Part shown: positions 7,193-31,749 of the stretch, piece after piece
Position numbering within the stretch: the stretch's first letter is position 1
How the letters are laid out: every line of letters starts with the position of its first letter
Assembly (NCBI GenBank): GCA_964580335.1
Contig: CAZOKC010000001.1
Span: forward strand, 7,885-41,640
DNA length: 33,756 bases
DNA from: an uncultured Candidatus Peribacteria bacterium
Lineage (GTDB): Bacteria > Patescibacteriota > Gracilibacteria > CAZOKC01
Reading direction: 5' to 3'
Position numbers and translations under genes: made by a program
The notes under the pieces: model-generated
Told to the model about the DNA's origin: nothing
Seen by the model: only the letters and a program-made list of their open reading frames with translations
The model's database searches: none

Positions 7193-9859
7193 ATGCCCAA
7201 TTTGAAAGAGCAAAATAGTTTTACCCGACTCAAATCATTTTTCATTTTTAGTTTTGCGATAGTTTTTATAAGTTCACTTTTATCGACACTTGGTTATATA
7301 AAATCACCACTTGAAAATGACTCTTACAATTTACTTGGAGATTTGAATATAAATGATGTTTTACAAGCCAATCTTTTTGAAGAAGTTGGAAGTGTAAGAA
7401 CTGTCAATCTTTCAAGTGAACCATCGGCTTTTGATATGGGTGCCAGTGCAGATGGTGGATTTGTTATAGTTTGGAATCAGATCATATCTTCAGGAAATGC
7501 TAGTGATTCTAAAATTACACTGGAAAGATACAATAAAGATGGAAGAAAAGTTGGAGGAGGTCAAATTGTAAATGCAAATCCAAATAAAAATGCTTATGAT
7601 CCAAGTATTTCAGTTACTTCAGATGGTACTTATGCTGTAGCGTGGGCAGAATTTGATTCTTCAGGAAACTCACAAATATATGCAAGAAGATATAAAAGTG
7701 ATGATACGCCGATCGATACATCGCCTATAAGGGTTACTGACAATCGAAGTGATAAAGATGTTAAAAAACCAAGTATTGCGATGAATGAAAATAAGTCATT
7801 TTTGGTAGCTTGGCAAATAGGTGATTTAAATGATATAGAATTTGATAGTGTGGGAAAAGAACTAAAAGCTAAAATTTATACAGAAAGTAATGGTATTTTG
7901 TCTTCATCTGATGTTTCTTTTTCTCCTCCAAGAGGATTTGTTGGGGTTTCTGGATTTATGGATAGTTCAATTAATAAAAATGGTAAATATGCTGTAACTT
8001 TCCGTGGAGAAGGTAATCCTAATTCTGATCAAATTCATAAAGGGATATATACTGTATCAAATATTACAGGAAGTAATCTTGAAACAAATACTTCACAAGG
8101 AGGTATTTTGGATTATCCAAGTGTGTTTATAGATGAAAAGAATAATATGGTTGTATCATGGAAATTTACTTCAAATAATGATAATTCAACTGAAGATGTG
8201 TTTATAGATTTTTACAAAAATGGATCGATAGCAAATAATGATTTTCTTGTAAATACTCCATCTCCTGATATAGCTTATTTCAAACCTTTTTCTGTTATTT
8301 CAAATTCTGACGAAGTCATTATTTATTATTTAAAGCAAAATTTTAGTAATGGGAATATAGATGTCTTTGCAAATCTATATGATTCAACTCTTACTCTAAA
8401 AGAAGGACCGAAAGAAATTGTTAAAGATATTTCTATTGATATTGGATTTTATAATTATGTTTTCAAATTGAATGATAACAGATTCTTATCATCTTGGGTT
8501 GATGGTTCTGGGAAGAAATTGAATTTTGTTGTTTCAGGAGCTAAACCTCCTGTAGCTGATACCGATGGAGATGGTGTAAAAGATGATGTTGACAATTGTA
8601 TAGAGGACAAAAATCCTGATCAAAAAGATACAGATGAAGATGGTATAGGTGATGTTTGTGATGATGCGCCTTCTGTTAAATCATCGGGTGGTAGTTCTAG
8701 ACCAAGATGTTCTCCAGGAGATACTTCTTGTAATGAAGTTTTAAATATTCCTAAAGTTGAATTTGAATTTAGAAAAAATGAAGATGAAGAAAAAACATCT
8801 ATCGAATATTTTGGGTATTTTTTGGAACCTTATGTTTCTGAATCAGAAAAAACTTCAACTTCTTCACAACCTAGTACTCAAATTGATAGAGGAGGTAAAG
8901 AAAAAAAATTGAAGGCGAGTGAATTTTTGAAAGAATCAAAATGTTTGTATCTTTCCAAATTTGATTTTGGAATTAATGATTTTGTGACATATCCTGATAG
9001 TGGAGAGGATTTTGAGCTTGAAAAAGGAGATATACTTAAAACTGAATGTGATAAAGAAAGAAAATTTACTTTAGATGGTACTAAAACTACTGATGAGTTC
9101 TCTTTTGAATTTTATTTTAGTAAGGTAGATATAAAAAATATTAAAAAGAAAGTAGGTTCAGGTTCTTTAGTAAATACAAAAAATGTTATTTCAAGTGATG
9201 TTAAAAAAGATCTTGAAACGGATCCAAGAGGGCTTGAATTTTTTATTAGTTTGCATGAGACAAAAGAAGTAACAAAAGATTTTGTTCAAACTTTCATATC
9301 AACAAAATTTCCAAAATTTGATCCTAAGGTTATGGAAATTTTTATAGAAAAATTTAATTTTGATAAACAAGAATTTGAACCCGATATATCATTAGCTCTT
9401 CTATCTGACCTTGTTTATAAAATAAGAGTGGATGATAGATCTATGGAAATTCTTAATCAAAAATTTGATCTAGGCAAAGATAAAGATGGTAAACAAATAC
9501 CTTTTAGAGTTGGAGAAGACTTTGAATTTGAAATGCAGGTAAAAAATGGAGAAGCACCTTATATTTGGTCTATTGATACATTAAAAGCTCCCGATGGATG
9601 TAGTATTATCCCAAGTAGAGGAATATTTTATTGTACACCAACTGAGTCAGGTTATTTTTCATTTGATATTACTGTGAAAGATTCAAATAATAATTCTAAA
9701 TCAAAGAAATTTGATATATTTATTGAAGCTTCCGAAGAATCTTGTTTTATAGGTAAATATATAGAATGTGAAAATTCATCAACAGAACTTGGTTTTATAA
9801 CTTGTATTATGCAAAAGTATGCCAAGGACTGGGTAAAAACTTCTTTATTTGGTAATTAA
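7193..9859 (+). CDS. Large membrane-anchored/secreted surface protein (blade-like repeats, TSP type-3 Ca-binding repeats, Ig-like domain)
   Basis: 888 aa. N-terminal hydrophobic anchor FFIFSFAIVFISSLLSTLGYI. Recurring ..V.W.. units (FVIVWNQ, YAVAWAEF, FLVAWQIG, MVVSWKF). DTDGDGVKDDVDNCIEDKNPDQKDTDEDGIGDVCDD at 8558-8665 resembles thrombospondin type-3 repeats. An Ig-like segment sits at about 9499-9724 (EAPYIWSID..YCTPTESGYFSFDITVKD), followed by a Cys-rich tail. Confidence 0.8.
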   Translation: MPNLKEQNSFTRLKSFFIFSFAIVFISSLLSTLGYIKSPLENDSYNLLGDLNINDVLQANLFEEVGSVRTVNLSSEPSAFDMGASADGGFVIVWNQIISSGNASDSKITLERYNKDGRKVGGGQIVNANPNKNAYDPSISVTSDGTYAVAWAEFDSSGNSQIYARRYKSDDTPIDTSPIRVTDNRSDKDVKKPSIAMNENKSFLVAWQIGDLNDIEFDSVGKELKAKIYTESNGILSSSDVSFSPPRGFVGVSGFMDSSINKNGKYAVTFRGEGNPNSDQIHKGIYTVSNITGSNLETNTSQGGILDYPSVFIDEKNNMVVSWKFTSNNDNSTEDVFIDFYKNGSIANNDFLVNTPSPDIAYFKPFSVISNSDEVIIYYLKQNFSNGNIDVFANLYDSTLTLKEGPKEIVKDISIDIGFYNYVFKLNDNRFLSSWVDGSGKKLNFVVSGAKPPVADTDGDGVKDDVDNCIEDKNPDQKDTDEDGIGDVCDDAPSVKSSGGSSRPRCSPGDTSCNEVLNIPKVEFEFRKNEDEEKTSIEYFGYFLEPYVSESEKTSTSSQPSTQIDRGGKEKKLKASEFLKESKCLYLSKFDFGINDFVTYPDSGEDFELEKGDILKTECDKERKFTLDGTKTTDEFSFEFYFSKVDIKNIKKKVGSGSLVNTKNVISSDVKKDLETDPRGLEFFISLHETKEVTKDFVQTFISTKFPKFDPKVMEIFIEKFNFDKQEFEPDISLALLSDLVYKIRVDDRSMEILNQKFDLGKDKDGKQIPFRVGEDFEFEMQVKNGEAPYIWSIDTLKAPDGCSIIPSRGIFYCTPTESGYFSFDITVKDSNNNSKSKKFDIFIEASEESCFIGKYIECENSSTELGFITCIMQKYAKDWVKTSLFGN

Positions 9860-9866
9860 TTTTTTT

Positions 9867-10589
9867 ATGAATATCAAGAAATTTATAACATTATCTTTTT
9901 TTGGTTTATTTTTTATTTTAAATATTCAAAATGTTTTAGCTGCTCCTAAGCTTAGATTGGATGTATCTTATACAAAAGAAGAAAGTGTACTTTTTTTAAA
10001 TATAAAAGAACCAAAAGGATTATCTAGAAATTTGGAATCAGAAAAGATTATTTCTATATCGATGGACATAAGATATAATAGTTCCATTGATTATGTTGGG
10101 GCAAAAGGCCTTAGTGCAGTAAAAGGTGTAAATGTTAAAGATGATGAAGGAAAATTATCTTTACTTGTTATAGATTTAAATGATATTTCATCGTTTAAAA
10201 ATGATGGGGTAAATCTTAGGTTCAAAATAAATAATGACAAAAATATAGTTATAAATCCTATTGGAACTTTTGCTACTATAAATTCAAAAGATAAGGTCAA
10301 TATTGAATTCAATCCAAAAGAAATTTTGATAGGAGACAATACTTCTTCAATAGTACCTGTAGAGATAGATGAAGATATTTTACCTATAGAAGATGTAGAT
10401 TTAGAAACTTCTGAACCAGGAATTGATCCTTCGACATATTCAAATGATGTTATGCAAAATAATTTGATGCAGGATGATATTGTGAAAGAAAATAAACCTT
10501 TGCCAAGCTCGGGAAGTTCAAGTTATCTTATTTTACTTATGGCATTTTTAGTTTTTGCAGTTTCAAGACTTGCTTTATCAAAAAGATAA
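9867..10589 (+). CDS. Sortase-substrate surface protein with cohesin-like beta domain (LPSSG sorting signal)
   Basis: ATG 9867 gives signal peptide MNIKKFITLSFFGLFFILNIQNVLA. The C-terminus is LPSSG, then a hydrophobic stretch YLILLMAFLVFAV, then a basic SRLALSKR tail (10500-10586), which is a classical cell-wall sorting signal. The cohesin-like call for the middle region rests on sequence pattern only. Confidence 0.75.
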   Translation: MNIKKFITLSFFGLFFILNIQNVLAAPKLRLDVSYTKEESVLFLNIKEPKGLSRNLESEKIISISMDIRYNSSIDYVGAKGLSAVKGVNVKDDEGKLSLLVIDLNDISSFKNDGVNLRFKINNDKNIVINPIGTFATINSKDKVNIEFNPKEILIGDNTSSIVPVEIDEDILPIEDVDLETSEPGIDPSTYSNDVMQNNLMQDDIVKENKPLPSSGSSSYLILLMAFLVFAVSRLALSKR

Positions 10590-10590
10590 T

Positions 10591-11850
10591 ATGATTTTCA
10601 GGAAATTCTTTTTTTGGCTTTTTCTAGTTTTTGCATTATCTTTTTCAATATTTTTATTTGGAATTGATTCCCAGAAATATAAAGCAGATATTTTTGAAGT
10701 TAAAAGTGATATAAAAAGTTTTAACTATGCAATTACAAATAATGGCGAAACAAATTTTGTAGTTACTGATGAATTTGATAAATTTTTAGGGATTAAAAAT
10801 ATTTTTCTTATAAGCCCCCCTATAGATTTATGTTCTAAAGAATCAGTGAGCTTTATAGATTATCCTTTACTTACTTTTCTTCCTTCGGAAAATAGTTTAG
10901 CTTATTTTTGGTTTGAGTTAGATGAAAATACAAGATATATATGCGGTGCAAAATATGATTTGTCTACAAATATTTGGGGAAAATCTTATGTGATAGTTGA
11001 TAATGATAGAATACTTGGTGATTTTAAAGTTAGTCAATTTGAAGAAAATAAACTGGTAATTATTTATAGGAAGAAATTTTGTAGTCACATTTCATTGGTT
11101 GGAAGAACTTTAAGTACTTTGGATTTTGAAAATTTGAAGGTATATGGTGATAAAACAACAACAGGTTATTCATGTAGAAAATTTTATGCAAGTGATTATG
11201 AATTTCCTATAGCAGATTATCTAAATAAAAAATATGGAGAAATAACTGATTATGATATAGATGAAAATAGTATTATTATAGAATATAGAAATGAATTTTC
11301 TCAAAATAGTTCTCTGTGGATAACAAATTTGAATCCTTCTGGAAGTAAGACTCCAAGAAAATTGAAAAGATATGATCCAGTTTATGGAGGCAATAATAAC
11401 TTTCATAATCCAAGAATTGCCACGTCAATCGGTGGAACAAAAATGATTGTATGGTCGTCAAAAGCTTTGGCTGGGGGAAGTGATTGGGATGTATTTGGAG
11501 GATTTTTAGATAAAAATCTTGAAAAGTTTTCTGGAGATACATTCTTTAAGATAAATGAATATGTAGGAAAAGATCAAAAAGATATAGGTGTTTTTTGGAA
11601 TAAAGATAAATTTGTAACATTTTATTTATCAAATAGTGCATTAAATTCTCCTCAATCACTAAATCTAGTTGCAAGACCTTTTGATGTCGTAACTTCAAAA
11701 TCTCCATCAAAAGAATCTATTTTATTTAGTAAATCATTTGGAGTTATTAATAATATTGAAAAAATAGTTAATTCTAACGGTAAAATATCTTTGATTCTCG
11801 ATACTGATAACAAAATGACACTTATAGATTTAGGAGGTTTAAATGAATAA
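10591..11850 (+). CDS. Membrane-anchored hypothetical protein, probably paralogous to the N-terminal repeat region of the 888-aa protein
   Basis: ATG 10591, one nt after the previous stop. N-terminal TM FFFWLFLVFALSFSIFLFGI. The unit ..GGTKMIVWSSKALAGGSDWDVFGGF.. resembles ..GGFVIVWNQIISSGNASDSKITLERY.. in the 888-aa protein. Confidence 0.7.
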   Translation: MIFRKFFFWLFLVFALSFSIFLFGIDSQKYKADIFEVKSDIKSFNYAITNNGETNFVVTDEFDKFLGIKNIFLISPPIDLCSKESVSFIDYPLLTFLPSENSLAYFWFELDENTRYICGAKYDLSTNIWGKSYVIVDNDRILGDFKVSQFEENKLVIIYRKKFCSHISLVGRTLSTLDFENLKVYGDKTTTGYSCRKFYASDYEFPIADYLNKKYGEITDYDIDENSIIIEYRNEFSQNSSLWITNLNPSGSKTPRKLKRYDPVYGGNNNFHNPRIATSIGGTKMIVWSSKALAGGSDWDVFGGFLDKNLEKFSGDTFFKINEYVGKDQKDIGVFWNKDKFVTFYLSNSALNSPQSLNLVARPFDVVTSKSPSKESILFSKSFGVINNIEKIVNSNGKISLILDTDNKMTLIDLGGLNE

Positions 11851-12784: not shown

Positions 12785-13384
12785 ATGCATCATATAATAT
12801 CAAAAGACGAACATATAATAATGAAGTTAAGGAAACATTATATAATATATCTATTTATATTCTTTTTATTTATTTTTCTAAATATCGTTCCGGTTGCGTT
12901 GTTTATTGTTATATTCAATATATTTTTTAGGGAAGTTCCAGACTTTGTTTGGTGGTTTATATGGTGGTATCAGCTTTTTATTATAACTTTTCTTTATATT
13001 AAGTTTATCGAGGAAGTTTTGGATATGATTATAATAACTGATAAGAGAATTATAGATATAGATCAGGTTACTTTCCTTCAAAGAAATGTTTCAACCGCAA
13101 AACTTACTGATATTCAAGATGCTAGAGGGAAAGTAAATGGTTTTTTTGGGACTGTATTAGGATATGGAACTCTTATAGTGCAAACTGCTAGTACAAAATC
13201 TTTTTTTACTATGGATTTTGTTTATGATCCTGCGATGAAAGCTGAAAATATTATTAAATTAACAGGAAAATATAAATCTAGGTCATCTCATGATCATTTT
13301 AAATCAAAAGAAAAAGAAGAATCACCAATAGATTTACTTATAGAATCTAGGCAAAATATATCTTCATCATTAAATAACGAATAA
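12785..13384 (+). CDS. Membrane protein with bacterial PH-like (YdbS/YdbT-type) domain
   Basis: Two N-terminal TM helices, then ..IITDKRIIDIDQ..TAKLTDIQDARGKVNGFFGTVLGYGTLIVQTAS.., a pattern typical of bPH_2 domains. A possible alternative start is ATG 12821. Confidence 0.55.
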   Translation: MHHIISKDEHIIMKLRKHYIIYLFIFFLFIFLNIVPVALFIVIFNIFFREVPDFVWWFIWWYQLFIITFLYIKFIEEVLDMIIITDKRIIDIDQVTFLQRNVSTAKLTDIQDARGKVNGFFGTVLGYGTLIVQTASTKSFFTMDFVYDPAMKAENIIKLTGKYKSRSSHDHFKSKEKEESPIDLLIESRQNISSSLNNE

Positions 13385-18245: not shown

Positions 18246-19361
18246 TTAATCGTTGATTATTTTCCCTGCTTCTTTTTCGTCTAGATATTTCCAGAGCATT
18301 ATCATGAGTACAAATACTATTAGGATAAGTACAATTTTTGCCCATTTATTAAAAAATAGTGCTGAAATTCCAAATAGACTTGTAAATAAATAAATTATTA
18401 TAAGTGATTTTGATTCTGAAAATCCGTTTCTTAGCATTTTGTGGTGAGTATGTTCAAAGTTATGTGTCCAAGGTGTTTTGCCTTTCTTTAGCAAAACTAC
18501 GGAATTTATTACTTTATCAAAAATTGGGAACCCAAGTACAACTAAAGCAGTTGCAATCTTGGCGCTGGCCATTATAGAAAGTACAGATATGAGTAATCCA
18601 CATAATGCTGATCCAGTATCTCCAATCAAAGATTTTGCAGGAGGAAGTTCAAAAACAAGTCCTGAGAATATTATTCCAAGACTTATAAGAAGCATTCTAT
18701 AAGTCATTTCTTGATTACTCCACTGCAAAGGATCAAATGAATTTGTTTGAAGTAATTTATAAGTAAGTAAAAGCAACACAAATATTGATATAAATGATAT
18801 ACCAAGAGTTTCTCCTCTTATACCATCAGTAAAATTTATGATATTTATAATGCCTACTATCCATAACACTGTGAATGTTATGACCACATATTCAAATTCA
18901 AATCCCATTAAAGATACTTTGTATTGTGTTAAATCGATAATACCAGGACTCAATGGGTTACTTATGTAGTCTATTGAAATTCCTGCGTATATCAAAATCA
19001 GGGCTACTACAATTTGTGTAATAAGTCTTGAATGAATTTTAATTCTTAATTTTATTTTTTCTAAAGTATTTCCAAAATCATCAATTATATTTGTTATTAA
19101 AAGTAATAATATTGCAAATCCTATAAATAAGAATTTTAAGTTAGATGTTATATAAAATAAATATCCAATAAAACTCAATATACTTATATTTAAAGATATC
19201 CCACTACTATAAGGAAGAGCTTCCCTCGTGTATCCAAATTTCCAAGGTCTGTCTGTAAGTGTAAGTTTTTTTGCAATTATGATATATAAAAAATGAATAA
19301 TAAAACCTAAGAGAGAAGGTAAAAGTAAGAATTTTATATAATATATTGTGTCAATTTGCAT
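18246..19361 (-). CDS. Glycosyltransferase family 4 polyprenyl-phosphate sugar-1-phosphate transferase (WecA/MraY-like)
   Basis: Polytopic membrane protein with the DD motif (NIIDDFGN), NFTDGIRG (NxxDGxxG) and a C-terminal FEHTHHKML His motif. ATG 19361 (MQIDTIYY..) avoids the overlap with truB that the track start at 19427 would create. Confidence 0.75.
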   Translation of the reverse strand: MQIDTIYYIKFLLLPSLLGFIIHFLYIIIAKKLTLTDRPWKFGYTREALPYSSGISLNISILSFIGYLFYITSNLKFLFIGFAILLLLITNIIDDFGNTLEKIKLRIKIHSRLITQIVVALILIYAGISIDYISNPLSPGIIDLTQYKVSLMGFEFEYVVITFTVLWIVGIINIINFTDGIRGETLGISFISIFVLLLLTYKLLQTNSFDPLQWSNQEMTYRMLLISLGIIFSGLVFELPPAKSLIGDTGSALCGLLISVLSIMASAKIATALVVLGFPIFDKVINSVVLLKKGKTPWTHNFEHTHHKMLRNGFSESKSLIIIYLFTSLFGISALFFNKWAKIVLILIVFVLMIMLWKYLDEKEAGKIIND

Positions 19362-19365
19362 ATAT

Positions 19366-20286
19366 TTAAATTTGAGAAATAAGTCGTAAACTTTGAAGAG
19401 AATTTGATTTAGAATTGTAATTACCAAATCCTATAAATTCTGATTCTATATAGATAGGGGATTTTTCTATATTTTTTTTACCCAGATCAATTTGTAAATT
19501 ACCTTTTATCATAAGTTCTTTTTTATATTTAGAATCAATATTTATCCTAGCTTTAAAGAAATTATTATTAAACATTTCTTCTAAGTCCATAATATTATCA
19601 TGGATCTCAAATTCTTTTAAGTCATTATTGTAGTAAACAATTTTGATATTTTCTTTGGAAAATGATCCTATTCCAGTTCTTGTAATGCTTGTAGTGTAAG
19701 CTCCAAATTTTGAAATAGCACCTATATCATGAATTATAGATCTTATGTATGTTCCACTTTCACAACTTACTTCTATTTCAAAATTTGGAGCATCAAACTT
19801 TATTAATTTTATATCATAAATTTCTTTTACTCTTTCTGGAATTTCAAAATCTTTTCCTTGTCTTGCCATTTCATAAGATCTTTTTCCATCTATTTTTATA
19901 TTTGAATGTATTGGTGGTCGTTGTTTTATTTTTCCAAGAAAATTTTTATTTAAAAGTTTTTTAAAATCATCCTCATCAAAATCTTTTATAGGTATTTTCG
20001 TTTCTTTTATTTCCCCTTCAGTATCGTAAGTTGTAGATATCTTACCCAAAATTCCTGTTGCTTTATATATCTTCCTATCAGGTAAGAATTTAAAAAACTT
20101 TGATGCTTCTCCAAATCCAATCAAAAGAAGTCCTTCGGCTTTTGGGTCGAGGACTCCTGTATGTCCAATCTTTATTTTTTCTTTTATATTAAATCTGAAT
20201 TTTAAACTATTTCTCACTTTTTTGATGCAGTCAAACGAAGACCAATCCATGGGTTTCCAAACGAATATGAATCCAGATTCTTTCAT
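19366..20286 (-). CDS. truB: tRNA pseudouridine(55) synthase
   Basis: GHTGVLDPKAEGLLLIGFGEASK catalytic-Asp motif; 306 aa. Confidence 0.85.
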   Translation of the reverse strand: MKESGFIFVWKPMDWSSFDCIKKVRNSLKFRFNIKEKIKIGHTGVLDPKAEGLLLIGFGEASKFFKFLPDRKIYKATGILGKISTTYDTEGEIKETKIPIKDFDEDDFKKLLNKNFLGKIKQRPPIHSNIKIDGKRSYEMARQGKDFEIPERVKEIYDIKLIKFDAPNFEIEVSCESGTYIRSIIHDIGAISKFGAYTTSITRTGIGSFSKENIKIVYYNNDLKEFEIHDNIMDLEEMFNNNFFKARINIDSKYKKELMIKGNLQIDLGKKNIEKSPIYIESEFIGFGNYNSKSNSLQSLRLISQI

Positions 20287-20974: not shown

Positions 20975-23900
20975 TTATTTGTTTCTTTGTAATTTTAATT
21001 TTGTTTTTATATCAAATATTTCAATCTCTTTTTCAAAATCACATTTTTTTAAATAAGAATTTATTTCAGTAGTTAATGTTTCGGATTTTAATATTTCGAG
21101 CATATTTTTATCAAAATCAAGATCATCAATTTTATCTATACTTATAGTTATGCGATCTGAGATATTGAAATTTGCTTCTTTTCTAGCCTCTTGTATCTCT
21201 CTTATAAGATCTCTAAGTATACCTTCTTTTCTGAGTTCGTCTGTAATTGTTGTATCAAGTCCAACCAAGATTTCACCGAGTCCTTGGGCTTCGAGATTTC
21301 CTTTAGGTTCATACCTAAATTCGTATTCACCTGGATGTAAATTTTCTCCTCCTATTTCATAAATTCCTTCTCCTAAATCTTTGAATTTTCCTTGTTTCGC
21401 CAAGATAATTATTTCTTGAGTTTTACCTCCAAATCTTGGTCCTATTTTTCTTGCGTCAGGTGATAAACTTACATTTGCTATATTTGAAGCATTTTCTTCC
21501 CAAATTATATCTTTTACATTTAGTTCTTCTTTTATAACTTCTTCAAGTTTTTTCATTTCTTTAAATAGTTTTTTATTTCCTATTGCTATATGTGCACTTG
21601 GCAAAGGTTGTCTTACTTTTATATTATTTTTTGATCTAAGTAATAATCCAAGTGAAACAATTTCTCTTGCCGTGTTAGTTTCTTTTTCAAGGTCTTTATC
21701 GATAAGGTTATAATTTACAAGTGGAAAATGATCGAGATGTACTGATTCAAAAACTTTTGTATTAGGCCTTAATAAATCATAAATGTGTTCACTTAAAAAT
21801 GGGCAAAAAGGAGCAAGTAATTTATTTAAAGTATCAAGAACATACCACAGTGTTTCATAAGCTTCATTTTTGTCAGAATCATTTTCACTTTTCCAAAATC
21901 TTCTTCTTGATCTTCTTATGTACCAGTTATTTAATTTATCTAAAAATGGTGCAAATTCATCTGAAGCTTTTTGAAGATCGTACGCATATAATTCATCTGA
22001 GATTTTACTTATAAGTGTTTGAAGTTCCGATAATATCCATTTATCTAAAGGATGTTTTGGAGAAAGAAGAACAAATTCTTTTATTTGTCCATTTGCTGTA
22101 TGACCTTCCCAATGTTTTGGGTGGTTACCTTTACCAAAACCATAATTTAAAAGTATTTGTTCTAAAGCTCTAGTTGTGGATTTGTGAGTTGATAAAACAA
22201 CGGCTTTTTCATTTTTCTCAAGTATGCCATCAAGACCTTTTTTTACTCTTTTATAAAAATCATCCACATAACTTTCGCCAGTAGGATATGGAACTTCCCA
22301 ACTTTCCATATTTTTATTCTTAGCCAGAATTGGTTTTCTGTATTCTGCTCTTTCCTCTAAAGTTTTACCTTCAAAATCACCAAGGATTATTTCATTTAAA
22401 TCTTCGATTTTATTTACTTTAGTTTTTTTAGCGTTAGCAAGAGGAGTTACTGTTTCATAAGCTCTTTTTAAGTTGGATGAATATATCGAATCTATATCTA
22501 TTTTTGAAAGTCTTTCAGATACTTTTTTTGCTTGATTTTGACCTTCTTTGTTTAAAGATAAATCCAGACTACCTTGAAGTTTACCTTCATTGTTTAAGTC
22601 AGTAGTTCCGTGTCTTACAAGATAAACTCTTCTTATATTTTTTGGTGTCCATTTATCTATATTTGCATATGTTGTAAGGAATGAAAGAGAATTCCAAAGT
22701 GGTATCAAAATAGTTTTCAATTTTTCGTCTATTGCAGTATCTGTAAATTTTGCATTTTCTCCTTTTACTACAGGTGAATTTATAAGTGTAAATCTAAAAG
22801 CATCAACTCCTTTTGTATCAAAAAGGATTGTTGGATCTGTAAAATTTCTTTTTGATTTTGAAAGTTTTTTTCCGTCTTCTGCAAGTAGAAGTCCCATTAC
22901 TACTATATTTTTTGCAGGTACATCTTGAAAAATAGCAGCTGATTCTACAAGTAGTGTATAAAACCATCCTCTTGTTTGATCCATCGCTTCACTTATAAAA
23001 TCGGCAGGAAATTTTTTCATAAATCCTTTTTCATCTTTGAAAGGAAAATGATTTGAAGCGTAAGGCATGGCTCCAGATTCAAACCAACAATCAAATACTT
23101 CAGGTACACGTCTATAAGTAAGTCCATTTTCTTCCCAAACTATGTCATCTACAAAATGTTTATGAAGATCATCTATTTTTGTAACTTTCTTTTTTGTTTT
23201 TTCATAATATGGGTTTTTTGAAAGTACTTCGTCTCTTGATCCTATAAAAATTGTATCTTTTACATTTCCTTCTTTATCATATCCTTTCCAAATAGGAAGA
23301 GGTGTTCCCCAATATCTATTTCTTGAAAATGCCCAGTCCGGTGCGTTTTCTATCCAATTTGCAAACCTTAAATTTCCAGCAAATCCTGGAACCCAGTGGA
23401 TTTCTTTATTTTTTTCTATCATTTTTTCTTTGAGCTTTCCTTCGATTTTTATAAACCAAGTTTCAAATGCAAAATTAAGAAGTGGCGTATCACATCTCCA
23501 ACAAAGTGGATATGAATGGTTGTAAGTTTCTTTTTTAAAAAGTAGATTTCTTTTTTCTAAATTGTCACAAATTTCTTTATCGAAACTTGTATAATTATCT
23601 TTTGTTTTTACTGTTTTGCCTTTAAATTCTTTTACGTAAGGTTTTACGATTCCCTCGATAGTTATGTGCTGTATAAATCCAAGCTTCTCTTTTTTTTTTT
23701 TTTTTTAATCTTCGCTACCAAACGCAGGCGCTACGTGAAGTACACCTGTACCGTCAACCATAGTTACCACATCTGATCCGACTACTACATATTGTCTTCC
23801 TTCTTTTTCTGGAGTCACAGAAAATAATGGTTCGTAAGAAAGGCCGACAAGTTCGGAGCCTTTGTAAGTGTGAGCTAATTTTTCTTCAAAATTTTCACCT

Positions 23901-24745
23901 AATATTTTTTTAGCTAATTCAAAGGCGAGTATTATATATTCGTTCCCTTTATCGATTAAAACATAATCTTCCTTCTCATTTACCGCTAAAGCTATATTTC
24001 CAGGAAGAGTCCATGGAGTTGTCGTCCATGCCAGCATATAAACTGGTGATGGAAGGTTACTTAGATTTTCATAAACTTTCTGCGACTTTTTATCCGCACT
24101 TCCATTTATTTTAAATTTAGCTGTACAAGACAAATCTTGAATATCTTTATATCCAAGAGCTACTTCAAAATTTGACAGTGGAGTCGCACATCTTGGGCAA
24201 ATGTGCATAGGTTTATAGCCTTCGTAGATCAAACCTTTTTTATGAAGTTCTTTTGTAACCCACCATATACTTTCCATGTACCATGGCTCCATTGTTTTGT
24301 AATCATTATCCATATCTACCCATCTTCCAAGTCTTTCTATGACTTTTTGCCATTCGTCTGCGTATTTCAAAATCGTCGATCTACATGATTCGTTGAATTT
24401 ATCTACACCCATTTTTTCTATATCTTGTTTTCCATTTAACCCAAGTTCTTTTTCTTTTTCGTATTCGATAGGAAGTCCATGACAATCCCATCCCCAAACT
24501 CTTTCTACACGTTTACCTTGCATGGTATGAAATCTTGCGATTATATCTTTCACGGTAGAAATAAGTAAATGTCCATGATGTGGAAGCCCTGTAGCAAAAG
24601 GAGGTCCATCAAAAAATGAGAATGTATAATTTTCTTGTTTTTCTTCGATAGATTTTTTAAATGTGTCTTCTTTTTTCCATTTTTTAAGAATTTCTTTTTC
24701 TATTTTTGGAAAATCTGCTCTCGCTTCTATTTTTTTGAATGTCAT
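20975..24745 (-). CDS. ileS: Isoleucine--tRNA ligase (type 2), one frame of 1256 codons interrupted by a single in-frame TAA (23705-23707); carries an inserted histidine-phosphatase domain
   Basis: HIGH (PHHGHLL), editing-domain TTPWTLPGN and GTGVLHVAPAFGSED, and YNHSYPLCWRCDTPLL (in the untracked stretch 23423-23704). Also KMSKS (KLSKS), NWYIRRSRRRFW, and the type-2 C-terminal ..DELRKEGILRDLIREIQEARKEANF.. The track ORFs 23705-24745 and 20975-23422 are in the same frame, and the stretch between them is open. Confidence 0.9.
22052..22642 (-). other. Histidine-phosphatase (phosphoglycerate-mutase/CobC/SixA superfamily) domain embedded in ileS
   Basis: VYLVRHGTTDLN (RHG), SSNLKRAYETV (second Arg), ILGDFEGKT (acid) and VVLSTHKSTTRAL (distal His). 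This covers residues ~261-457 of the 815-aa track ORF. Confidence 0.75.
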
Positions 24746-24815: not shown

Positions 24816-25364
24816 TTATTCTTTTATTTTTCTAATTATCTCGTTTGCAACTTCTTCAGGAGACAAATTTGTACTATCTATTACGAAGTCAAAATTTGAT
24901 TTGTCGTATGGATCGATATCATAATACTTTTTATATCTTTGACTTTCATTGGCTACTCTTTCAAGTATTTGAGTTTTAACTTCTTCCAAATTGTCTGCAT
25001 GAAGTTCATTTCTATCTGAATTTATAACTCTATCTTTTGATATTCTTCTTGCGGATTCTTCGACTGAAACATCTATAAAAACTTTTTTTGCATTTGGTAT
25101 GAAATGCCAAGCGGTCCTACTTTCGATGATGAAGTTATCTTTTGTCTTTGCATAATGTAAAACCATATCATCTATTTCTTTATCTATTTTACCTCCGTCA
25201 TGATTTGCTATTTCAAGAAGTTCTTCGATAGTTATACCCATATCTTTGGCTTTGTCTCTAAGCAATTGTCCCATATAAATTCTCTCAAAACCAAGTTTCT
25301 TTTCAAGTATTTTTGAAACTGTACTTTTTCCTGAACCCGGAAATCCACAAATTGAGATAATCAT
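24816..25364 (-). CDS. cmk: Archaeal-type cytidylate (CMP) kinase
   Basis: 182 aa. IISICGFPGSGKSTVSKILEKKLGFERIYMGQLLRD.., ..IIESRTAWHF.., ..RYKKYYDIDPYDKSNFDFVIDST.. match the short archaeal-type CMK layout. Confidence 0.7.
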   Translation of the reverse strand: MIISICGFPGSGKSTVSKILEKKLGFERIYMGQLLRDKAKDMGITIEELLEIANHDGGKIDKEIDDMVLHYAKTKDNFIIESRTAWHFIPNAKKVFIDVSVEESARRISKDRVINSDRNELHADNLEEVKTQILERVANESQRYKKYYDIDPYDKSNFDFVIDSTNLSPEEVANEIIRKIKE

Positions 25365-25591: not shown

Positions 25592-27067
25592 TTAGATTTT
25601 TTTAACTGTCCATTTATGGCTTGAGGAATCCCATTCGATATTAACTTGTTTTTTATTCCAATTTACATTATTAGGATTTGTTCCAGTATACTCTGATTTA
25701 TTATCAACTTTTATAGTTATACTTTCTGGAGCACCATTAGTCATACATAAAATGTTTGCTACGGCACTCTGCAATGATGTTAATGATTCTTTAGCTTTCG
25801 AATTTTCATCTGGATCTGTATTTGTATAAGCTGGTAAATTTATAGTTGTCAGTTTGGTAAGCTTTTCAAGTCCAGAAAAATCTATTTTTGAAGTAATTGT
25901 TGAATCAAACTTCACATCAGGAAAAGTCACTTCCGTCACACCTGTAAACGCATCCAGATTTGGAATAGTTTTACTTTCAATTGTTAATTTTGTTACTTTT
26001 GAAACATCAATTCCGGTAGGTAAAGTCGTAAACCCTTCTTTCATTACAAATGTAGTACCATCAGTTAAAAATTCATAATTTGTGTTAGGTTTCTTTTCTT
26101 CCTCTTTAGTTATTTCAGGTGATTTTTGTTCCATCAAGAAATCAAAAAGGAATTTTGTTCTTGCTTCAGGAGTGTCGGCTTTACTTATATTGAAAGCAAG
26201 AGCTGCTTTTGCTTGAGAGAGAGTTTCTGTAGGAATCCCCGCAAAAATATCTACTTCATCAGGAGATGAGATTCTTAATCCTTTGCCTTCGGTATCTGTC
26301 ACTTGTTTTCCGCTAGAATCAACTAATGGCATCTTTGTAAATTTATTTTTTAGTGTTTGAGCTTGTGACGCGGTAAATAAAGCAAAACTTGTACTATCTA
26401 GTGTGTTTAGTGCAAGTGAATTGATATTTGGATTTGTCTCAAGTAGTGTTTTATCTTGAATTTCGGAAAGTATTCTTTCTGCAAATTTATCGCGAAGAGT
26501 ATATGTTTCCCAACCTTTCGTTCCTACCATATCGTCTAAATATTTGTCTAAAGCACCTATTTTGAGTCCTCTTAAGATATCTACGATGAATGCCATGACA
26601 AAACCTTCTTCGAATCCCATATTTTTGGCAAATTCTTTTATCCCACCAAGTGTATCTGTCTTTACATCGACGTGTTTTTGGATTTCCGCAACTAATTCTT
26701 GAAGGACTTTGAATAATCTTGAATATTCAGTTCTTTCTTCTTCACTTAAAGTAGATCCAGAGTCTTTTCCTGCTTCTCTTAACTTCGCGATAAAATCTCT
26801 TCCTATCTGATCTTTTAGACTATTTAAACTGGCTTGCGTTTCGGATGATACTTTCCCTATTTCTTTTTTGTAAAAATCATCAAGTGCTATTTCAAAAGTT
26901 TTAATGGACTCTTCGGCGACCTCCTCACTTTTTACTGTGTGTGCCTGCATCGTATCTATACTTTTGATAAGTGGATTAAAATCAGGTTTTGCCTGAAATC
27001 CAGAAAGCATATTTCCTACAAAAGGTATATCTGTAATATTTCGCTTTTCTGCTCCTGTATCTGCCAT
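25592..27067 (-). CDS. Hypothetical protein, C-terminal leucine-rich-repeat-like region; no signal peptide
   Basis: 491-aa ORF with no recognisable catalytic motif. The C-terminal third has LRR-like periodicity (..VSKVTKLTIESKTIPNLDAFTGVTEVTFPD..FSGLEKLTKLTTINLP..). Confidence 0.6.
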   Translation of the reverse strand: MADTGAEKRNITDIPFVGNMLSGFQAKPDFNPLIKSIDTMQAHTVKSEEVAEESIKTFEIALDDFYKKEIGKVSSETQASLNSLKDQIGRDFIAKLREAGKDSGSTLSEEERTEYSRLFKVLQELVAEIQKHVDVKTDTLGGIKEFAKNMGFEEGFVMAFIVDILRGLKIGALDKYLDDMVGTKGWETYTLRDKFAERILSEIQDKTLLETNPNINSLALNTLDSTSFALFTASQAQTLKNKFTKMPLVDSSGKQVTDTEGKGLRISSPDEVDIFAGIPTETLSQAKAALAFNISKADTPEARTKFLFDFLMEQKSPEITKEEEKKPNTNYEFLTDGTTFVMKEGFTTLPTGIDVSKVTKLTIESKTIPNLDAFTGVTEVTFPDVKFDSTITSKIDFSGLEKLTKLTTINLPAYTNTDPDENSKAKESLTSLQSAVANILCMTNGAPESITIKVDNKSEYTGTNPNNVNWNKKQVNIEWDSSSHKWTVKKI

Positions 27068-30213: not shown

Positions 30214-31749
30214 TTACTTAATTTTTAAGGTCTTTGTTACTTCTTCAAATTCATCTTTGAAATCCACTTTAGATGTTTTTGGTATAGCTTGAATAATTGA
30301 AACTATTTTGAAGTTGTTTGCGACTATTCTATGCACTATATCGAAATTCAAATTTGAATTCAGTTTATTGGTTAAAGTATATTGAAGTTCATACATCTTT
30401 GTTTTTCCACTATAATAAGCGCCTTCCTTAGATATTTTAACATTGTTATAAAGACCTAAAGCTATTTTCAGGTCTTCAAGGTATGACGCTTGATCAAATG
30501 TGGTGTTTATATCTTTTTCTACTGTGACAAGTAGCGGATATGTTCTAAGATTTTCTTTGTACCAAGGTTTTACATAAAGTACTTCATACTGCCTTGTCAA
30601 AGAATTTAAATGATATAAATATGGATTATTTTTAAGTAGATTATCTACGGATGATACGTTTAATACTTCAAAATTTTCTGGATGTTCAAAAGAAATTCCT
30701 ATTTTGGAATCTTCAAATGTTTTATTTATGTAAGTCAGAGAGTCTTTGGTATCTATTTTTGCAGTTTTTACAAATTCGTATATTTCGTTATAATATTTTG
30801 AATTGAAATTCAGTCCATGATAAGTGAAAACTAAAACTCTTGAATCATTTATAATGTAGATTCCGTGAGTAAAAGGAGTTTTGTTATTGGATATTCTTCT
30901 GTCTATAAATTCTAAAGCTTTGATACTTCCAATATTTACTATCTTTGAAAGAGCTTTGTATCTTTCATCTTTGATAGCTTTTTCTCGAACATGAGAAAGT
31001 GTTGTAACTTGGTCATCTTCATCGAATTCTTGCAGATAAACTGTAATATAATCTTTATCTAAAGAATCTACGTTATCTTTTGGGATAAATGCACTTATAA
31101 ATTTACCATTACCATAAAATTGTTTGGGCAATTTACTTAAACTGATTTTTTCAAAGTTTGATGTGTATTTGAAATTCACTCCGAAAAATTGATTTTCAAA
31201 ATCCATCATTATCTTTTTGATACTTGTATCTACTTCAGGCAATTTTACTTCTTCATCAGTTAGTTTACTATCCTGATTTACCTGACTTGCAAAAAAACCA
31301 TTTAAAGCATCAAGAAGTCTTGGTGCTCCTTGCCTTGTATAAATCGTACCAAAATTGAATTTTTCTAAATATGATTTTCTTGAGACGGTTTGTGCTCTCT
31401 TGCCCCATGTATAACCTGAAACCTTGAATCTTTCTTGTAAACATAATGCTTCAAAATCTTTCAAAGGTTCATCTCTTTTTATACATGAAATATCACCAGA
31501 TTTTGCTGCAAGTGCTATAAGAAAATAATCATAACTAAGTGGTTTATTTTGAAATCTATTTTCTATAAAAAAACGGTTTGTATTAAGTCTACCTCCATGT
31601 AGTTTTTCGGACCAAAGTTTGATAGTTAAATCTCTTGTTTCATTTTCCGTTTTAGTATCGGCAGAAACAATATTGAAACTAGATATAAATAAAAACAAGA
31701 ATGCTACGAAAATTATTCTAAATTTCATATGTTGGAAGATTAGGGACAA
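30214..31749 (-). CDS. Secreted hypothetical protein
   Basis: 511-aa ORF. The likely start is ATG 31728 (MKFRIIFVAFLFLFISSFNIVSA, a signal peptide). No recognisable motif. Confidence 0.65.
   Translation of the reverse strand: MSLIFQHMKFRIIFVAFLFLFISSFNIVSADTKTENETRDLTIKLWSEKLHGGRLNTNRFFIENRFQNKPLSYDYFLIALAAKSGDISCIKRDEPLKDFEALCLQERFKVSGYTWGKRAQTVSRKSYLEKFNFGTIYTRQGAPRLLDALNGFFASQVNQDSKLTDEEVKLPEVDTSIKKIMMDFENQFFGVNFKYTSNFEKISLSKLPKQFYGNGKFISAFIPKDNVDSLDKDYITVYLQEFDEDDQVTTLSHVREKAIKDERYKALSKIVNIGSIKALEFIDRRISNNKTPFTHGIYIINDSRVLVFTYHGLNFNSKYYNEIYEFVKTAKIDTKDSLTYINKTFEDSKIGISFEHPENFEVLNVSSVDNLLKNNPYLYHLNSLTRQYEVLYVKPWYKENLRTYPLLVTVEKDINTTFDQASYLEDLKIALGLYNNVKISKEGAYYSGKTKMYELQYTLTNKLNSNLNFDIVHRIVANNFKIVSIIQAIPKTSKVDFKDEFEEVTKTLKIK

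What the first reader, a model, noticed from the sequence alone, without database searches (positions are those of the whole stretch)
22052..22642. Complete histidine-phosphatase domain inserted inside isoleucyl-tRNA synthetase
IleRS normally has only a short linker between the end of the catalytic core (..KLSKSKRNF..LIPLWNSLSFLTTYANIDKW) and the start of the anticodon-binding domain (LDKWILSELQTLISK..NWYIRRSRRRFW). This gene instead carries about 195 extra in-frame residues there. They have every catalytic hallmark of the phosphoglycerate-mutase/CobC/SixA histidine-phosphatase superfamily. These are RHG (VYLVRHGTTDLN), a second Arg (NLKRAYETV), an acidic residue (GDFEGK) and a distal His (LSTHKSTTRAL). 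The hallmark residues are intact, so the domain looks functional rather than decayed. I am not aware of any characterised aminoacyl-tRNA synthetase with an embedded phosphatase of this family. It could couple tRNA charging to hydrolysis of a phosphorylated nucleotide, alarmone or cofactor, or act on a phosphorylated tRNA or RNA end. Those functions are speculation.
Basis: partly seen in the sequence, partly recalled or inferred. Interest (0 to 1): 0.8.

Follow-up and report, generated by a model that had tools for sequence, protein, structure and literature searches.

The report
Phosphatase domain embedded in isoleucyl-tRNA synthetase
The gene for the enzyme that charges isoleucine onto tRNA carries a complete, apparently active phosphatase enzyme spliced into one of its surface loops, and this uncharacterised two-in-one design turns out to be a conserved trait of a whole group of tiny uncultivated (CPR) bacteria rather than an assembly error.

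Summary
Window 22049-22648 (minus strand) encodes about 200 in-frame residues that match Pfam His_Phos_1 (E = 4e-41). They sit between the last helix of the catalytic core and the first helix of the anticodon-binding domain of a type-2 IleRS. AlphaFold models the insert confidently (pLDDT 91.6). Its structural neighbours are whole small phosphatases (PspA, PhoE, CobC, GpgP; TM 0.75-0.80).

It is not a chimeric assembly. The same junction occurs in 95 other species-level genomes of Gracilibacteria, Peribacteria and related CPR bacteria. The catalytic Arg-His, Asn, Arg, Glu and His are 99-100% conserved in 92 domains.

Relatives also carry phosphatase domains in two other IleRS loops, up to three per protein. 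Some carry GNAT, Nudix, serine-hydrolase or P-loop kinase inserts instead.

The domain fails the curated cut-offs for dPGM, CobC, PspA and SixA, so its substrate is unknown. My best reading is an autonomous small-molecule phosphomonoesterase carried on IleRS. Coupling to aminoacylation is not excluded. I found no publication on this.

One caveat: this copy of ileS has a single in-frame TAA at the head of an A17 run (23705-23707), which I could not resolve.

The parts
20975..24745 (-). Complete ileS reading frame: type-2 isoleucyl-tRNA synthetase of 1256 codons with one internal TAA.
   Evidence: Translation. Pfam finds tRNA-synt_1, Anticodon_1 and DUF5915. NCBIfam TIGR00392 ileS scores 383 bits on the N-terminal part and 366 bits on the C-terminal part. 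The best solved relatives are yeast and human cytoplasmic IleRS and P. megaterium IleRS2.
22049..22648 (-). Inserted histidine-phosphatase (His_Phos_1) domain, residues 700-899 of the full frame. The Pfam core is 22118-22627.
   Evidence: PF00300 E = 4.3e-41. AlphaFold2 model: pLDDT 91.6, pTM 0.88. Foldseek TM 0.75-0.80 to PspA, GpgP, CobC and PhoE over about 200 columns. Boundaries.
22610..22615 (-). Arg711-His712 of the RHG motif. His712 is the predicted phospho-accepting nucleophile.
   Evidence: Aligned to R8/H9 of PspA 4ij5. Invariant in 92 of 92 site-B domains and in the site-A and site-C domains.
22592..22594 (-). Asn718, a conserved residue of the phosphate pocket.
   Evidence: 92 of 92 conserved.
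22463..22465 (-). Arg761, the second catalytic Arg (NLKRAYET).
   Evidence: 92 of 92 conserved. Aligned to the Arg of LKRTYLT in 4ij5.
22391..22393 (-). Glu785 (DLNEII), the predicted proton donor.
   Evidence: 91 of 92 conserved. Aligned to the Glu of IIEID in 4ij5. The Glu of GDFEGK is variable.
22184..22186 (-). His854 (LSTHKST), the second catalytic His.
   Evidence: 92 of 92 conserved.
22649..22708 (-). Last helix before the insert (LIPLWNSLSFLTTYANIDKW). It forms the N-terminal junction.
   Evidence: Helix 228-255 in the 815-aa model, with junction pLDDT about 91. The WN..TYA..D motif was used as the junction probe.
21599..22048 (-). Anticodon-binding domain, starting at LDKWILSEL directly after the insert. 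It forms the C-terminal junction.
   Evidence: Pfam Anticodon_1, residues 460-608 of the 815-aa ORF. Helix 458-479 in the model.
20984..21544 (-). C-terminal DUF5915 domain, which accompanies the type-2 IleRS relatives examined here.
   Evidence: PF19302 E = 3e-28.
24569..24580 (-). HIGH signature (HHGH) of the class I synthetase active site.
   Evidence: Motif positions.
22853..22867 (-). KMSKS signature (KLSKS).
   Evidence: Motif positions.
23690..23707 (-). In-frame TAA (23705-23707) that heads an A17 homopolymer. It splits the gene into 346-aa and 815-aa called ORFs.
   Evidence: It is the only homopolymer of 10 or more bases in the window. TAA is the ordinary stop of 25 of 28 ORFs.

Best explanation
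**Shown**
- The window encodes a type-2 IleRS. The loop between the last helix of the catalytic core and the first helix of the anticodon-binding domain has been replaced by a complete branch-1 histidine phosphatase domain of stand-alone size.
- All catalytic residues are intact: Arg711-His712, Asn718, Arg761, Glu785 and His854.
- The architecture is inherited, not assembled by error. It is a conserved trait of the Gracilibacteria / Peribacteria (Peregrinibacteria) / 'Altimarinota' branch of the CPR bacteria.
- Relatives carry further copies of the same domain family in two other IleRS loops.

**Inferred**
- The domain is an active phosphomonoesterase that works through a phospho-His712 intermediate. 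Its likely substrate is a small phosphorylated metabolite or nucleotide. It resembles the PhoE, CobC, PspA and GpgP type and is not a phosphoglycerate mutase.
- I think it most likely that the two activities are chemically independent. On this view IleRS is an essential, constitutively made protein with permissive surface loops, and it serves as a carrier for a housekeeping phosphatase in very small genomes.
- The exact substrate is unknown.
For: **Domain identity and fold**
- PF00300 E = 4e-41.
- The insert models at pLDDT 91.6 and matches whole-chain small phosphatases at TM 0.75-0.80.
- The 815-aa model (pLDDT 84.7, pTM 0.79) matches IleRS2 structures and, separately, phosphatases.
- IleRS motifs and domains are intact on both sides.

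**Not an artefact**
- A junction-specific DNA pattern found 97 loci among GTDB species-representative genomes. 95 of them have His_Phos at this site followed by the anticodon-domain motif.
- A JGI contig shows the same in-frame junction.
- About 20 representatives of 50%-identity clusters show it too.
- GC and GC3 of the insert equal those of its flanks.

**Selection for catalysis**
- R, H, N, R, E and H are 99-100% conserved in 92 site-B domains that share only about 25-40% identity.
- The same holds for 27 site-A and 7 site-C domains.

**Carrier reading**
- The same loops hold other unrelated small enzymes in relatives: GNAT, NUDIX, Ser_hydrolase and AAA_18/33 kinase. Up to three phosphatase copies occur in one protein.
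- The nearest sequence relatives are free-standing phosphatases of about 200 aa of the CobC/PhoE type.
- Site-B domains are slightly acidic, like free-standing phosphatases, with no RNA-binding charge signature.
- No free-standing His_Phos gene was seen in 719 kb around ileS in these genomes.
Against: - No substrate or activity was tested.
- The domain falls below the curated NCBIfam cut-offs for CobC, PspA, dPGM and SixA, so it cannot be assigned to a characterised specificity.
- The same domain family occupies three different IleRS loops, and the domains group by site. This could mean selection for physical association with IleRS specifically, which would favour functional coupling over mere carriage.
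- Short, confidently modelled linkers and a whole-chain pTM of 0.79 suggest a fixed rather than loosely tethered position.
- I could not test whether other synthetases of these organisms carry the domain.
- In this particular genome the gene has an in-frame TAA, so this copy may not make a full-length protein.
- A sub-lineage has shortened site-B domains that lack the Glu segment, so catalysis at this site is not retained everywhere.
Confidence: 0.6

Rival explanations
1. The phosphatase is functionally coupled to IleRS chemistry. It would act on something IleRS makes, binds or is inhibited by: a nucleotide by-product such as AMP or Ap4A, an alarmone, a phosphorylated adenylate-mimic inhibitor, or a phosphorylated tRNA end.
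For: - The same domain family sits at three different loops of the same enzyme, and the domains cluster by site.
- The trait is retained clade-wide with invariant catalytic residues.
- Linkers are short and confidently modelled, and pTM is 0.79.
- Co-inserted families in relatives (Nudix, P-loop kinase, GNAT) also handle nucleotides or cofactors.
- NCBIfam NF052459, described there as 8-oxo-(d)GTP phosphatase MutT1, gives a weak partial match to the insert. From my own knowledge, MutT1 pairs a Nudix domain with a histidine phosphatase that acts on nucleotides.
Against: - Site-B domains are on average slightly acidic (-1.8 per 100 aa), like free-standing phosphatases. This argues against RNA binding.
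- The closest families act on small metabolites.
- Unrelated enzymes occupy the same loops, which fits general permissiveness.
- Some lineages let the site-B copy decay.
- The geometry relative to the active sites could not be examined.
Confidence: 0.25
2. The domain is a protein phosphatase of the SixA, PGAM5 or Sts type, a phospho-His or phospho-Ser/Thr phosphatase that regulates IleRS or a partner protein.
For: It belongs to the same superfamily. SixA gives a weak partial hit (E = 3e-7, residues 5-82). From my own knowledge, superfamily members include protein phosphatases.
Against: - SixA scores 30 bits against a cut-off of 74.5, and only over the N-terminal third.
- The best sequence and structure matches are all small-molecule phosphatases.
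- No kinase partner is conserved nearby.
Confidence: 0.07
3. The insert is catalytically dead or purely structural in this lineage. Alternatively, the whole gene here is a pseudogene, so the domain does nothing in this organism.
For: - An in-frame TAA lies at 23705-23707, with no canonical start codon for the next 95 codons.
- A sub-lineage of relatives has shortened site-B domains that lack the Glu segment.
Against: - All six catalytic or pocket residues are intact here.
- There is no other stop or frameshift in 1256 codons.
- All IleRS motifs are intact.
- Composition is fully ameliorated.
- A single nonsense codon next to a 17-base homopolymer could also be a consensus error or a recent variant.
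Confidence: 0.06
4. The insert results from a chimeric or mis-joined assembly of an IleRS gene with an unrelated phosphatase gene.
For: None beyond the general possibility in metagenome assemblies.
Against: - The same in-frame junctions occur in 95 independent species-level genomes, including complete chromosomes such as CP060226.1 and OY970170.1, and in other metagenome contigs.
- The insert has the same GC and GC3 as its flanks.
- Both junction linkers are modelled with high confidence.
Confidence: 0.01

Closest known systems
Type-2 (eukaryote-like) isoleucyl-tRNA synthetase, e.g. Priestia megaterium IleRS2 (PDB 8c8u/8c9d), yeast IleRS (8wnd) and Thermus thermophilus IleRS (1ile)
   Same: - HIGH and KMSKS motifs, the CP1 editing motifs, the anticodon-binding helical domain and the C-terminal DUF5915.
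- These are the best sequence and fold matches.
   Different: - About 188 extra residues form a phosphatase domain in the loop after the residue aligned to T. thermophilus 666.
- None of the solved IleRS structures I matched has a domain there.
Small broad-specificity histidine phosphatases of branch 1: PhoE/YhfR (1h2e, 1ebb), phosphoserine phosphatase PspA (4ij5), alpha-ribazole phosphatase CobC (6nru, 6e4b) and glucosyl-3-phosphoglycerate phosphatase Rv2419c (4qih)
   Same: - Same fold over the whole chain (TM 0.75-0.80).
- Same catalytic Arg-His...Arg...Glu...His set.
- Same size, about 200 aa.
   Different: - 22-35% identity only.
- Below the curated cut-offs of the CobC and PspA models.
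- Not a free-standing protein: both termini are fused into IleRS by linkers of about 6-8 residues.
NCBIfam NF040702 'isoleucine--tRNA ligase, N-acetyltransferase domain-containing' (ileS_w_GNAT)
   Same: - An IleRS that carries an unrelated small enzyme domain.
- Relatives of this protein with GNAT inserts exist (P0162, P0208).
   Different: - This protein has no GNAT domain.
- It scores 87-148 bits against a cut-off of 1999.
- The inserted enzyme is a phosphatase.
Bifunctional RNase H / acid phosphatase of mycobacteria (NCBIfam NF005567, PRK07238)
   Same: - A CobC-like histidine phosphatase fused to an enzyme of nucleic-acid metabolism.
- The insert matches the phosphatase half, profile positions 179-329, at 84 bits.
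   Different: - By the profile positions matched (179-329 of 378), the phosphatase there is the C-terminal half of the protein, not an internal insertion.
- The partner is RNase H, not a synthetase.
- The score is below the cut-off of 326.
Mycobacterial MutT1 (Nudix + histidine phosphatase; NF052459) and PFK-2/FBPase-2 (P-loop kinase + histidine phosphatase; 1bif)
   Same: - The pairings of a histidine phosphatase with Nudix or with a P-loop kinase reappear inside IleRS in relatives (P0133, P0137).
- The FBPase-2 domain is a sequence match at E = 2e-9.
   Different: - Only weak or partial matches.
- No Nudix or kinase domain lies inside the IleRS of this window.

Membership tests
Histidine phosphatase superfamily, branch 1 (Pfam PF00300) | Profile match above the gathering score. 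| tested here: met
   141 bits against a cut-off of 21.7, E = 4.3e-41, profile positions 1-169 of 194.
Histidine phosphatase superfamily, branch 1 (Pfam PF00300) | RHG motif with the nucleophilic His, plus the second Arg, the second His and the acidic proton donor. | tested here: met
   R711, H712, R761, E785 and H854 align to the catalytic residues of PspA 4ij5. They are 99-100% conserved in 92 orthologous inserts.
Histidine phosphatase superfamily, branch 1 (Pfam PF00300) | Alpha/beta phosphoglycerate-mutase-like fold. | tested here: met
   AlphaFold2 pLDDT 91.6. Foldseek TM 0.75-0.80 over about 200 columns to PspA, GpgP, CobC and PhoE. The match recurs within the 815-aa model.
Histidine phosphatase superfamily, branch 1 (Pfam PF00300) | Phosphatase activity through a phospho-histidine intermediate. 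| not testable with these tools
   Needs an enzyme assay.
Cofactor-dependent phosphoglycerate mutase (dPGM) | Match to curated dPGM models above their cut-offs, over the full length. | tested here: not met
   TIGR01258 scores 43.8 bits against 81.7, and only over residues 5-99. Other dPGM equivalog models score 15-70 bits against cut-offs of 225-421. PDB dPGM matches are partial and weaker than the phosphatase matches.
Alpha-ribazole phosphatase CobC (TIGR03162) | Equivalog model score at or above the cut-off. | tested here: not met
   111.5 bits against a cut-off of 162.9. It is the best-scoring NCBIfam phosphatase model but falls below threshold.
Phosphoserine phosphatase PspA (NF045917) | Equivalog model score at or above the cut-off. 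| tested here: not met
   96.4 bits against a cut-off of 350. PspA 4ij5 is nevertheless the best PDB sequence match, at E = 4e-17.
Phosphohistidine phosphatase SixA (TIGR00249) | Equivalog model score at or above the cut-off. | tested here: not met
   30.4 bits against 74.5, over residues 5-82 only.
Isoleucyl-tRNA synthetase (TIGR00392 ileS), type 2 | ileS model match, HIGH and KMSKS signatures, CP1 editing motifs and an anticodon-binding domain. | tested here: met
   - TIGR00392 scores 383 bits (N-terminal ORF, profile 2-338) and 366 bits (C-terminal ORF, profile 435-684 as best stretch). Each part alone is below the whole-protein cut-off of 621 because the gene is called in two pieces and carries the insert.
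- HHGH, KLSKS, TTTPWT and CWRC are present.
- Anticodon_1 and DUF5915 are present.
- The best folds are IleRS2 and eukaryotic IleRS.
Isoleucyl-tRNA synthetase (TIGR00392 ileS), type 2 | An uninterrupted open reading frame. | tested here: not met
   One in-frame TAA at 23705-23707. Its cause is undetermined.
IleRS with GNAT domain (NF040702) | Model score at or above the cut-off and a GNAT domain present. | tested here: not met
   87 and 148 bits against 1999. No acetyltransferase Pfam hit.
Clade-specific 'IleRS with site-B histidine phosphatase' (defined here) | A His_Phos_1 domain between the WN..TYA..D helix and the LDKW..NWYIRRSR helix of IleRS. | tested here: met
   The window matches the junction pattern. 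95 GTDB species genomes share the architecture.

The most novel reading that the evidence does not exclude
IleRS of the Gracilibacteria / Peregrinibacteria clade is a multi-enzyme scaffold. The embedded phosphatases, up to three per protein, would be mechanistically linked to translation, together with the Nudix, GNAT, kinase and hydrolase modules that relatives insert in the same loops. Possible roles are clearing nucleotide by-products or signalling nucleotides made at the synthetase, detoxifying adenylate-mimic inhibitors, or repairing tRNA ends. That would be a new kind of synthetase-associated activity.
Probability: 0.22. Interest if true: 0.85.

Novelty: new variant of a known kind. Interest (0 to 1): 0.66.

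Why it matters
- **A new accessory activity.** Aminoacyl-tRNA synthetases are known to pick up accessory domains. I found no description of one with a complete, catalytically intact histidine phosphatase inside the polypeptide.
- **Not a curiosity of one genome.** The trait is conserved across a large branch of CPR bacteria with invariant catalytic residues, and it recurs at three loops. It is therefore under selection.
- **Either outcome is informative.** If the phosphatase is an independent enzyme, this shows how extremely reduced genomes package housekeeping enzymes into essential proteins, and it marks permissive insertion loops useful for engineering IleRS. If it is coupled to IleRS, it would reveal a new link between tRNA charging and phosphate or nucleotide metabolism.
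- **Annotation.** Gene callers split or misname these genes. One fragment is labelled 'broad specificity phosphatase PhoE', and others are called as two ORFs.

Tried and rejected
- **TAA as a sense codon or alternative code.** Rejected. 25 of 28 ORFs in the window end in TAA, and known genes are full length under code 11.
- **Slippage at the A17 run.** Rejected as a rescue by reasoning from the sequence: the TAA is formed by the T plus the first two A bases and stays in frame whatever the run length.
- **Source contig of the window's own protein.** Not on record. Its 90% cluster has one member and no name.
- **Word-indexed search with the insert alone.** Only 2 hits.
- **Profile search with 19 inserted domains.** The top 120 hits are all free-standing phosphatases of about 170-370 aa (most about 200 aa). 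It could not show whether other synthetases carry the domain.
- **Literature.** Eight searches on IleRS or aaRS combined with histidine phosphatase, phosphoglycerate mutase, CPR, Patescibacteria, Gracilibacteria or Peregrinibacteria found nothing relevant.
- **Conserved gene neighbourhood.** None. This includes the P-loop kinase just upstream.
- **Regulatory RNA.** Rfam reports only the tRNA-Arg gene, so no known RNA family, T-box included, lies upstream of ileS.
- **Basic charge as a sign of RNA binding.** Not seen across the family.
- **Recent horizontal acquisition.** Not supported by composition.
- **dPGM, CobC, PspA and SixA membership.** All below curated cut-offs.
Full report
**1. What is at the coordinates**

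The minus strand from 24745 to 20975 is one continuous 1256-codon frame that encodes an isoleucyl-tRNA synthetase. ORF listing splits it into a 346-aa piece (24745-23705) and an 815-aa piece (23422-20975).

Pfam assigns the following to the 815-aa piece:

| Residues of the 815-aa ORF | Family | E-value |
|---|---|---|
| 1-223 | tRNA-synt_1 | 2.8e-58 |
| 266-435 | His_Phos_1 (PF00300) | 1e-39 |
| 460-608 | Anticodon_1 | 9.2e-31 |
| 627-813 | DUF5915 | 3.2e-28 |

The HIGH (HHGH), KMSKS (KLSKS), TTTPWT and CWRC motifs of IleRS are all present.

**2. It is an insertion**

- The KMSKS-to-NWYIRRSR distance is 313 aa here, against about 125-130 aa in ordinary type-2 IleRS.
- Solved IleRS sequences align as two blocks, query 3-250 and 457-792, with only about 25 residues of the solved chain between them. 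For T. thermophilus IleRS the first block ends at residue 666.
- The linker in an insert-less relative, P0001, is 11 residues. Here 200 residues (700-899; 22049-22648) lie between TYANIDKW and LDKWILSEL.

**3. The insert is a complete, discrete phosphatase domain**

- An AlphaFold2 model of the insert alone has mean pLDDT 91.6 and pTM 0.88.
- Foldseek matches it over about 200 columns, at TM 0.75-0.80, to whole small histidine phosphatases: Rv2419c GpgP, Hydrogenobacter PspA, CobC, PhoE and a riboflavin-pathway phosphatase.
- The model of the 815-aa ORF (pLDDT 84.7, pTM 0.79) has a long helix (228-255), a short confident linker, the phosphatase (strands 265-270 to 447-451), another short linker, and then the first helix of the anticodon domain (458-479).
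- That model matches type-2 IleRS structures (P. megaterium IleRS2, yeast IleRS; E about 1e-42). It separately matches phosphatases at TM 0.7-0.8 normalised to the target.
- By sequence, the best solved relatives of the insert are PspA 4ij5 (E = 4e-17) and PhoE (1e-14). The catalytic Arg-His, Arg, Glu and His align.

**4. Which phosphatase?**

The NCBIfam equivalog models all fall below their cut-offs:

| Model | Score (bits) | Cut-off (bits) | Note |
|---|---|---|---|
| CobC (TIGR03162) | 111 | 163 | |
| PspA (NF045917) | 96 | 350 | |
| SixA (TIGR00249) | 30 | 74.5 | partial |
| dPGM (TIGR01258) | 44 | 82 | partial |

The domain is a member of the superfamily. It looks like the PhoE/CobC/PspA group of small-molecule phosphomonoesterases, not a phosphoglycerate mutase. 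It cannot be filed under any characterised specificity.

**5. It is not an assembly artefact, and it is not unique**

- An exhaustive HMMER search with the insert plus flanks recovered the window's own ORF. It also recovered about 20 representatives of 50%-identity clusters that cover the whole query in one stretch.
- A JGI contig shows the same in-frame junction, PLWNAYSFLLTYAEIDQWKPTGK-MYLARHG. There the gene caller named the fragment 'broad specificity phosphatase PhoE'.
- I wrote a junction-specific DNA pattern (WN..TYA..D, 7-17 codons, RHG....N). It matches the window once and no shuffle.
- In the GTDB species-representative genomes the pattern found 97 loci. 95 of them carry a His_Phos domain at this site, and in the loci that extend far enough the anticodon-domain motif follows about 250-270 aa downstream. 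The two exceptions are chance matches.
- The records are almost all Candidatus Gracilibacteria, Candidatus Peribacteria, 'Altimarinota' or 'Patescibacteria group'. They include complete chromosomes and oral Gracilibacteria.
- Many loci have in-frame TGA and no other stop, as expected for UGA read as a sense codon (genetic code 25). The window uses the standard code.
- The window's nearest relatives share only 38-40% identity over 420 aa, so it represents a divergent lineage.
- GC (0.305) and GC3 (0.137) of the insert equal those of the flanking gene.

**6. Selection**

- In 92 site-B domains, R and H of RHG, the pocket Asn, the second Arg and the second His are invariant. The Glu is 91 of 92.
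- The domains otherwise share about 25-40% identity.
- This is strong evidence that catalysis is maintained.
- One sub-lineage is an exception: P0158, P0175, P0191, P0220 and P0261. Its site-B domain is about 40-60 aa shorter and lacks the Glu-containing segment. P0175, P0191 and P0220 also carry a site-A hit, though a split and weak one.

**7. A wider pattern**

In IleRS of this clade, His_Phos_1 domains occur at three loops:

| Site | Position in IleRS |
|---|---|
| A | after RNRYWG..PxW |
| C | after ESGSMPYA, before FPADFIAEGLDQTRGWFY |
| B | this one |

- There are tandem copies at site A and up to three domains per protein. Pfam counts three stretches in the 1837-aa IleRS of locus L074.
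- Domains are usually most similar to domains at the same site: 46 of 53 nearest neighbours. Catalytic residues are kept at all three sites.
- Relatives also carry GNAT, NUDIX, Ser_hydrolase (PF06821) and AAA_18/33 P-loop kinase domains inserted within IleRS.
- One site-A protein is KKP39778.1 from Candidatus Peregrinibacteria.
- IleRS in this clade is therefore a hot spot for insertion of whole small enzymes.

**8. How it most likely works**

Shown:
- a bifunctional polypeptide with an intact synthetase and an intact phosphatase active site;
- short, confidently modelled linkers;
- clade-wide conservation.

Inferred:
- The domain hydrolyses a phosphomonoester through phospho-His712.
- I favour an autonomous housekeeping phosphatase carried on an essential protein, with confidence about 0.6 for the whole statement. 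Four results support this:
  - several unrelated enzymes use the same loops;
  - the nearest relatives are free-standing CobC/PhoE-like proteins;
  - the domains carry no basic charge signature, at -1.8 per 100 aa against -1.5 for free-standing phosphatases;
  - no free-standing His_Phos gene appears in 719 kb around ileS in these genomes.
- The main rival is true coupling to IleRS chemistry, at about 0.25. The recurrence of the same family at three loops of the same enzyme, and the apparently fixed placement, keep it alive.
I also could not test whether other synthetases carry the domain.

**9. Caveat for this genome**

- The frame contains one TAA (23705-23707). It is the start of T+A17, the only long homopolymer in the window.
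- Homologs align across it without a gap and have a hydrophobic residue there.
- TAA is the usual stop codon in this window.
- There is no ATG, GTG or TTG in frame for the next 95 codons.
- It may be a real nonsense mutation, a consensus error, or a termination-reinitiation site. Reads are needed to decide.
- It does not affect the conclusion about the domain, which rests on 95 other genomes.

**10. Novelty**

- Eight full-text searches found no description of an IleRS, or any aaRS, with an embedded histidine phosphatase.
- The closest catalogued thing is the NCBIfam model for IleRS with a GNAT domain.
- The sequences exist unremarked in public databases.
- I rate it a new variant of a known kind, a synthetase with an accessory domain, with interest 0.66.

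Noticed in passing
window 23690-23707 (minus strand): A single in-frame TAA heads an A17 run, the only homopolymer of 10 or more bases in the window, and splits ileS into 346-aa and 815-aa ORFs. Homologs have a hydrophobic residue at that position. No canonical start codon follows for 95 codons. The cause is undetermined.
   Followed up: partly
proteins P0122-P0245; loci L055 and L074: IleRS of this clade carries His_Phos_1 domains at two further loops (sites A and C), tandem copies, and up to three per protein (1837 aa in L074). Other relatives carry GNAT, NUDIX, Ser_hydrolase and AAA_18/33 kinase inserts. The enzyme is an insertion hot spot.
   Followed up: partly
proteins P0158, P0175, P0191, P0220, P0261: One sub-lineage has a site-B domain about 40-60 aa shorter than the window's. 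It lacks the Glu-containing segment and the pocket Asn but keeps RH; four of the five also keep the second Arg and the second His. This looks like decay of catalysis at this site. P0175, P0191 and P0220 also have a split, weak site-A hit.
   Followed up: partly
window 24816-25364 (minus strand): A P-loop kinase of the AAA_18 / cytidylate-kinase type lies 70 bases upstream of ileS on the same strand. A similar kinase domain is inserted inside IleRS in relative P0137. The adjacency is not conserved in the other 95 loci.
   Followed up: yes
window 23708-24745 versus 20978-23704: The ileS segment upstream of the TAA has a higher GC3 (0.237) than the rest of the gene (0.134-0.155). I did not establish whether this is meaningful.
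   Followed up: no
window-wide; loci L002-L098: The window uses the standard code: no in-frame TGA in DnaK, EF-G, TGT or IleRS, and one ORF ends in TGA. Most relatives with the same IleRS architecture have several in-frame TGA codons, consistent with code 25.
   Followed up: partly
window 25592-27067, 30214-31749, 9849-11850, 12785-13384, 7193-9859: Several sizeable ORFs (491, 511, 246, 431 and 199 aa) have no Pfam match. An 888-aa ORF has only weak Ig-like and thrombospondin-repeat hits.
   Followed up: no
locus L008 (CAZAIW010000124.1): A contig in a MAG labelled Burkholderiaceae carries the Gracilibacteria-type IleRS with the site-B phosphatase. This is probably bin contamination.
   Followed up: no
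proteins P0398 and P0399 (KKP37996.1, KKP37997.1): In Candidatus Peregrinibacteria GW2011_GWA2_33_10, ileS with a site-A phosphatase is also deposited as two separate ORFs on one contig (658 + 543 aa). Split calls of these long genes recur.
   Followed up: no
window 18246-19427 and 19366-20286 (minus strand): The listed glycosyltransferase-4 ORF (TTG start) overlaps the end of truB by 62 bases. The start codon is probably further downstream.
   Followed up: no
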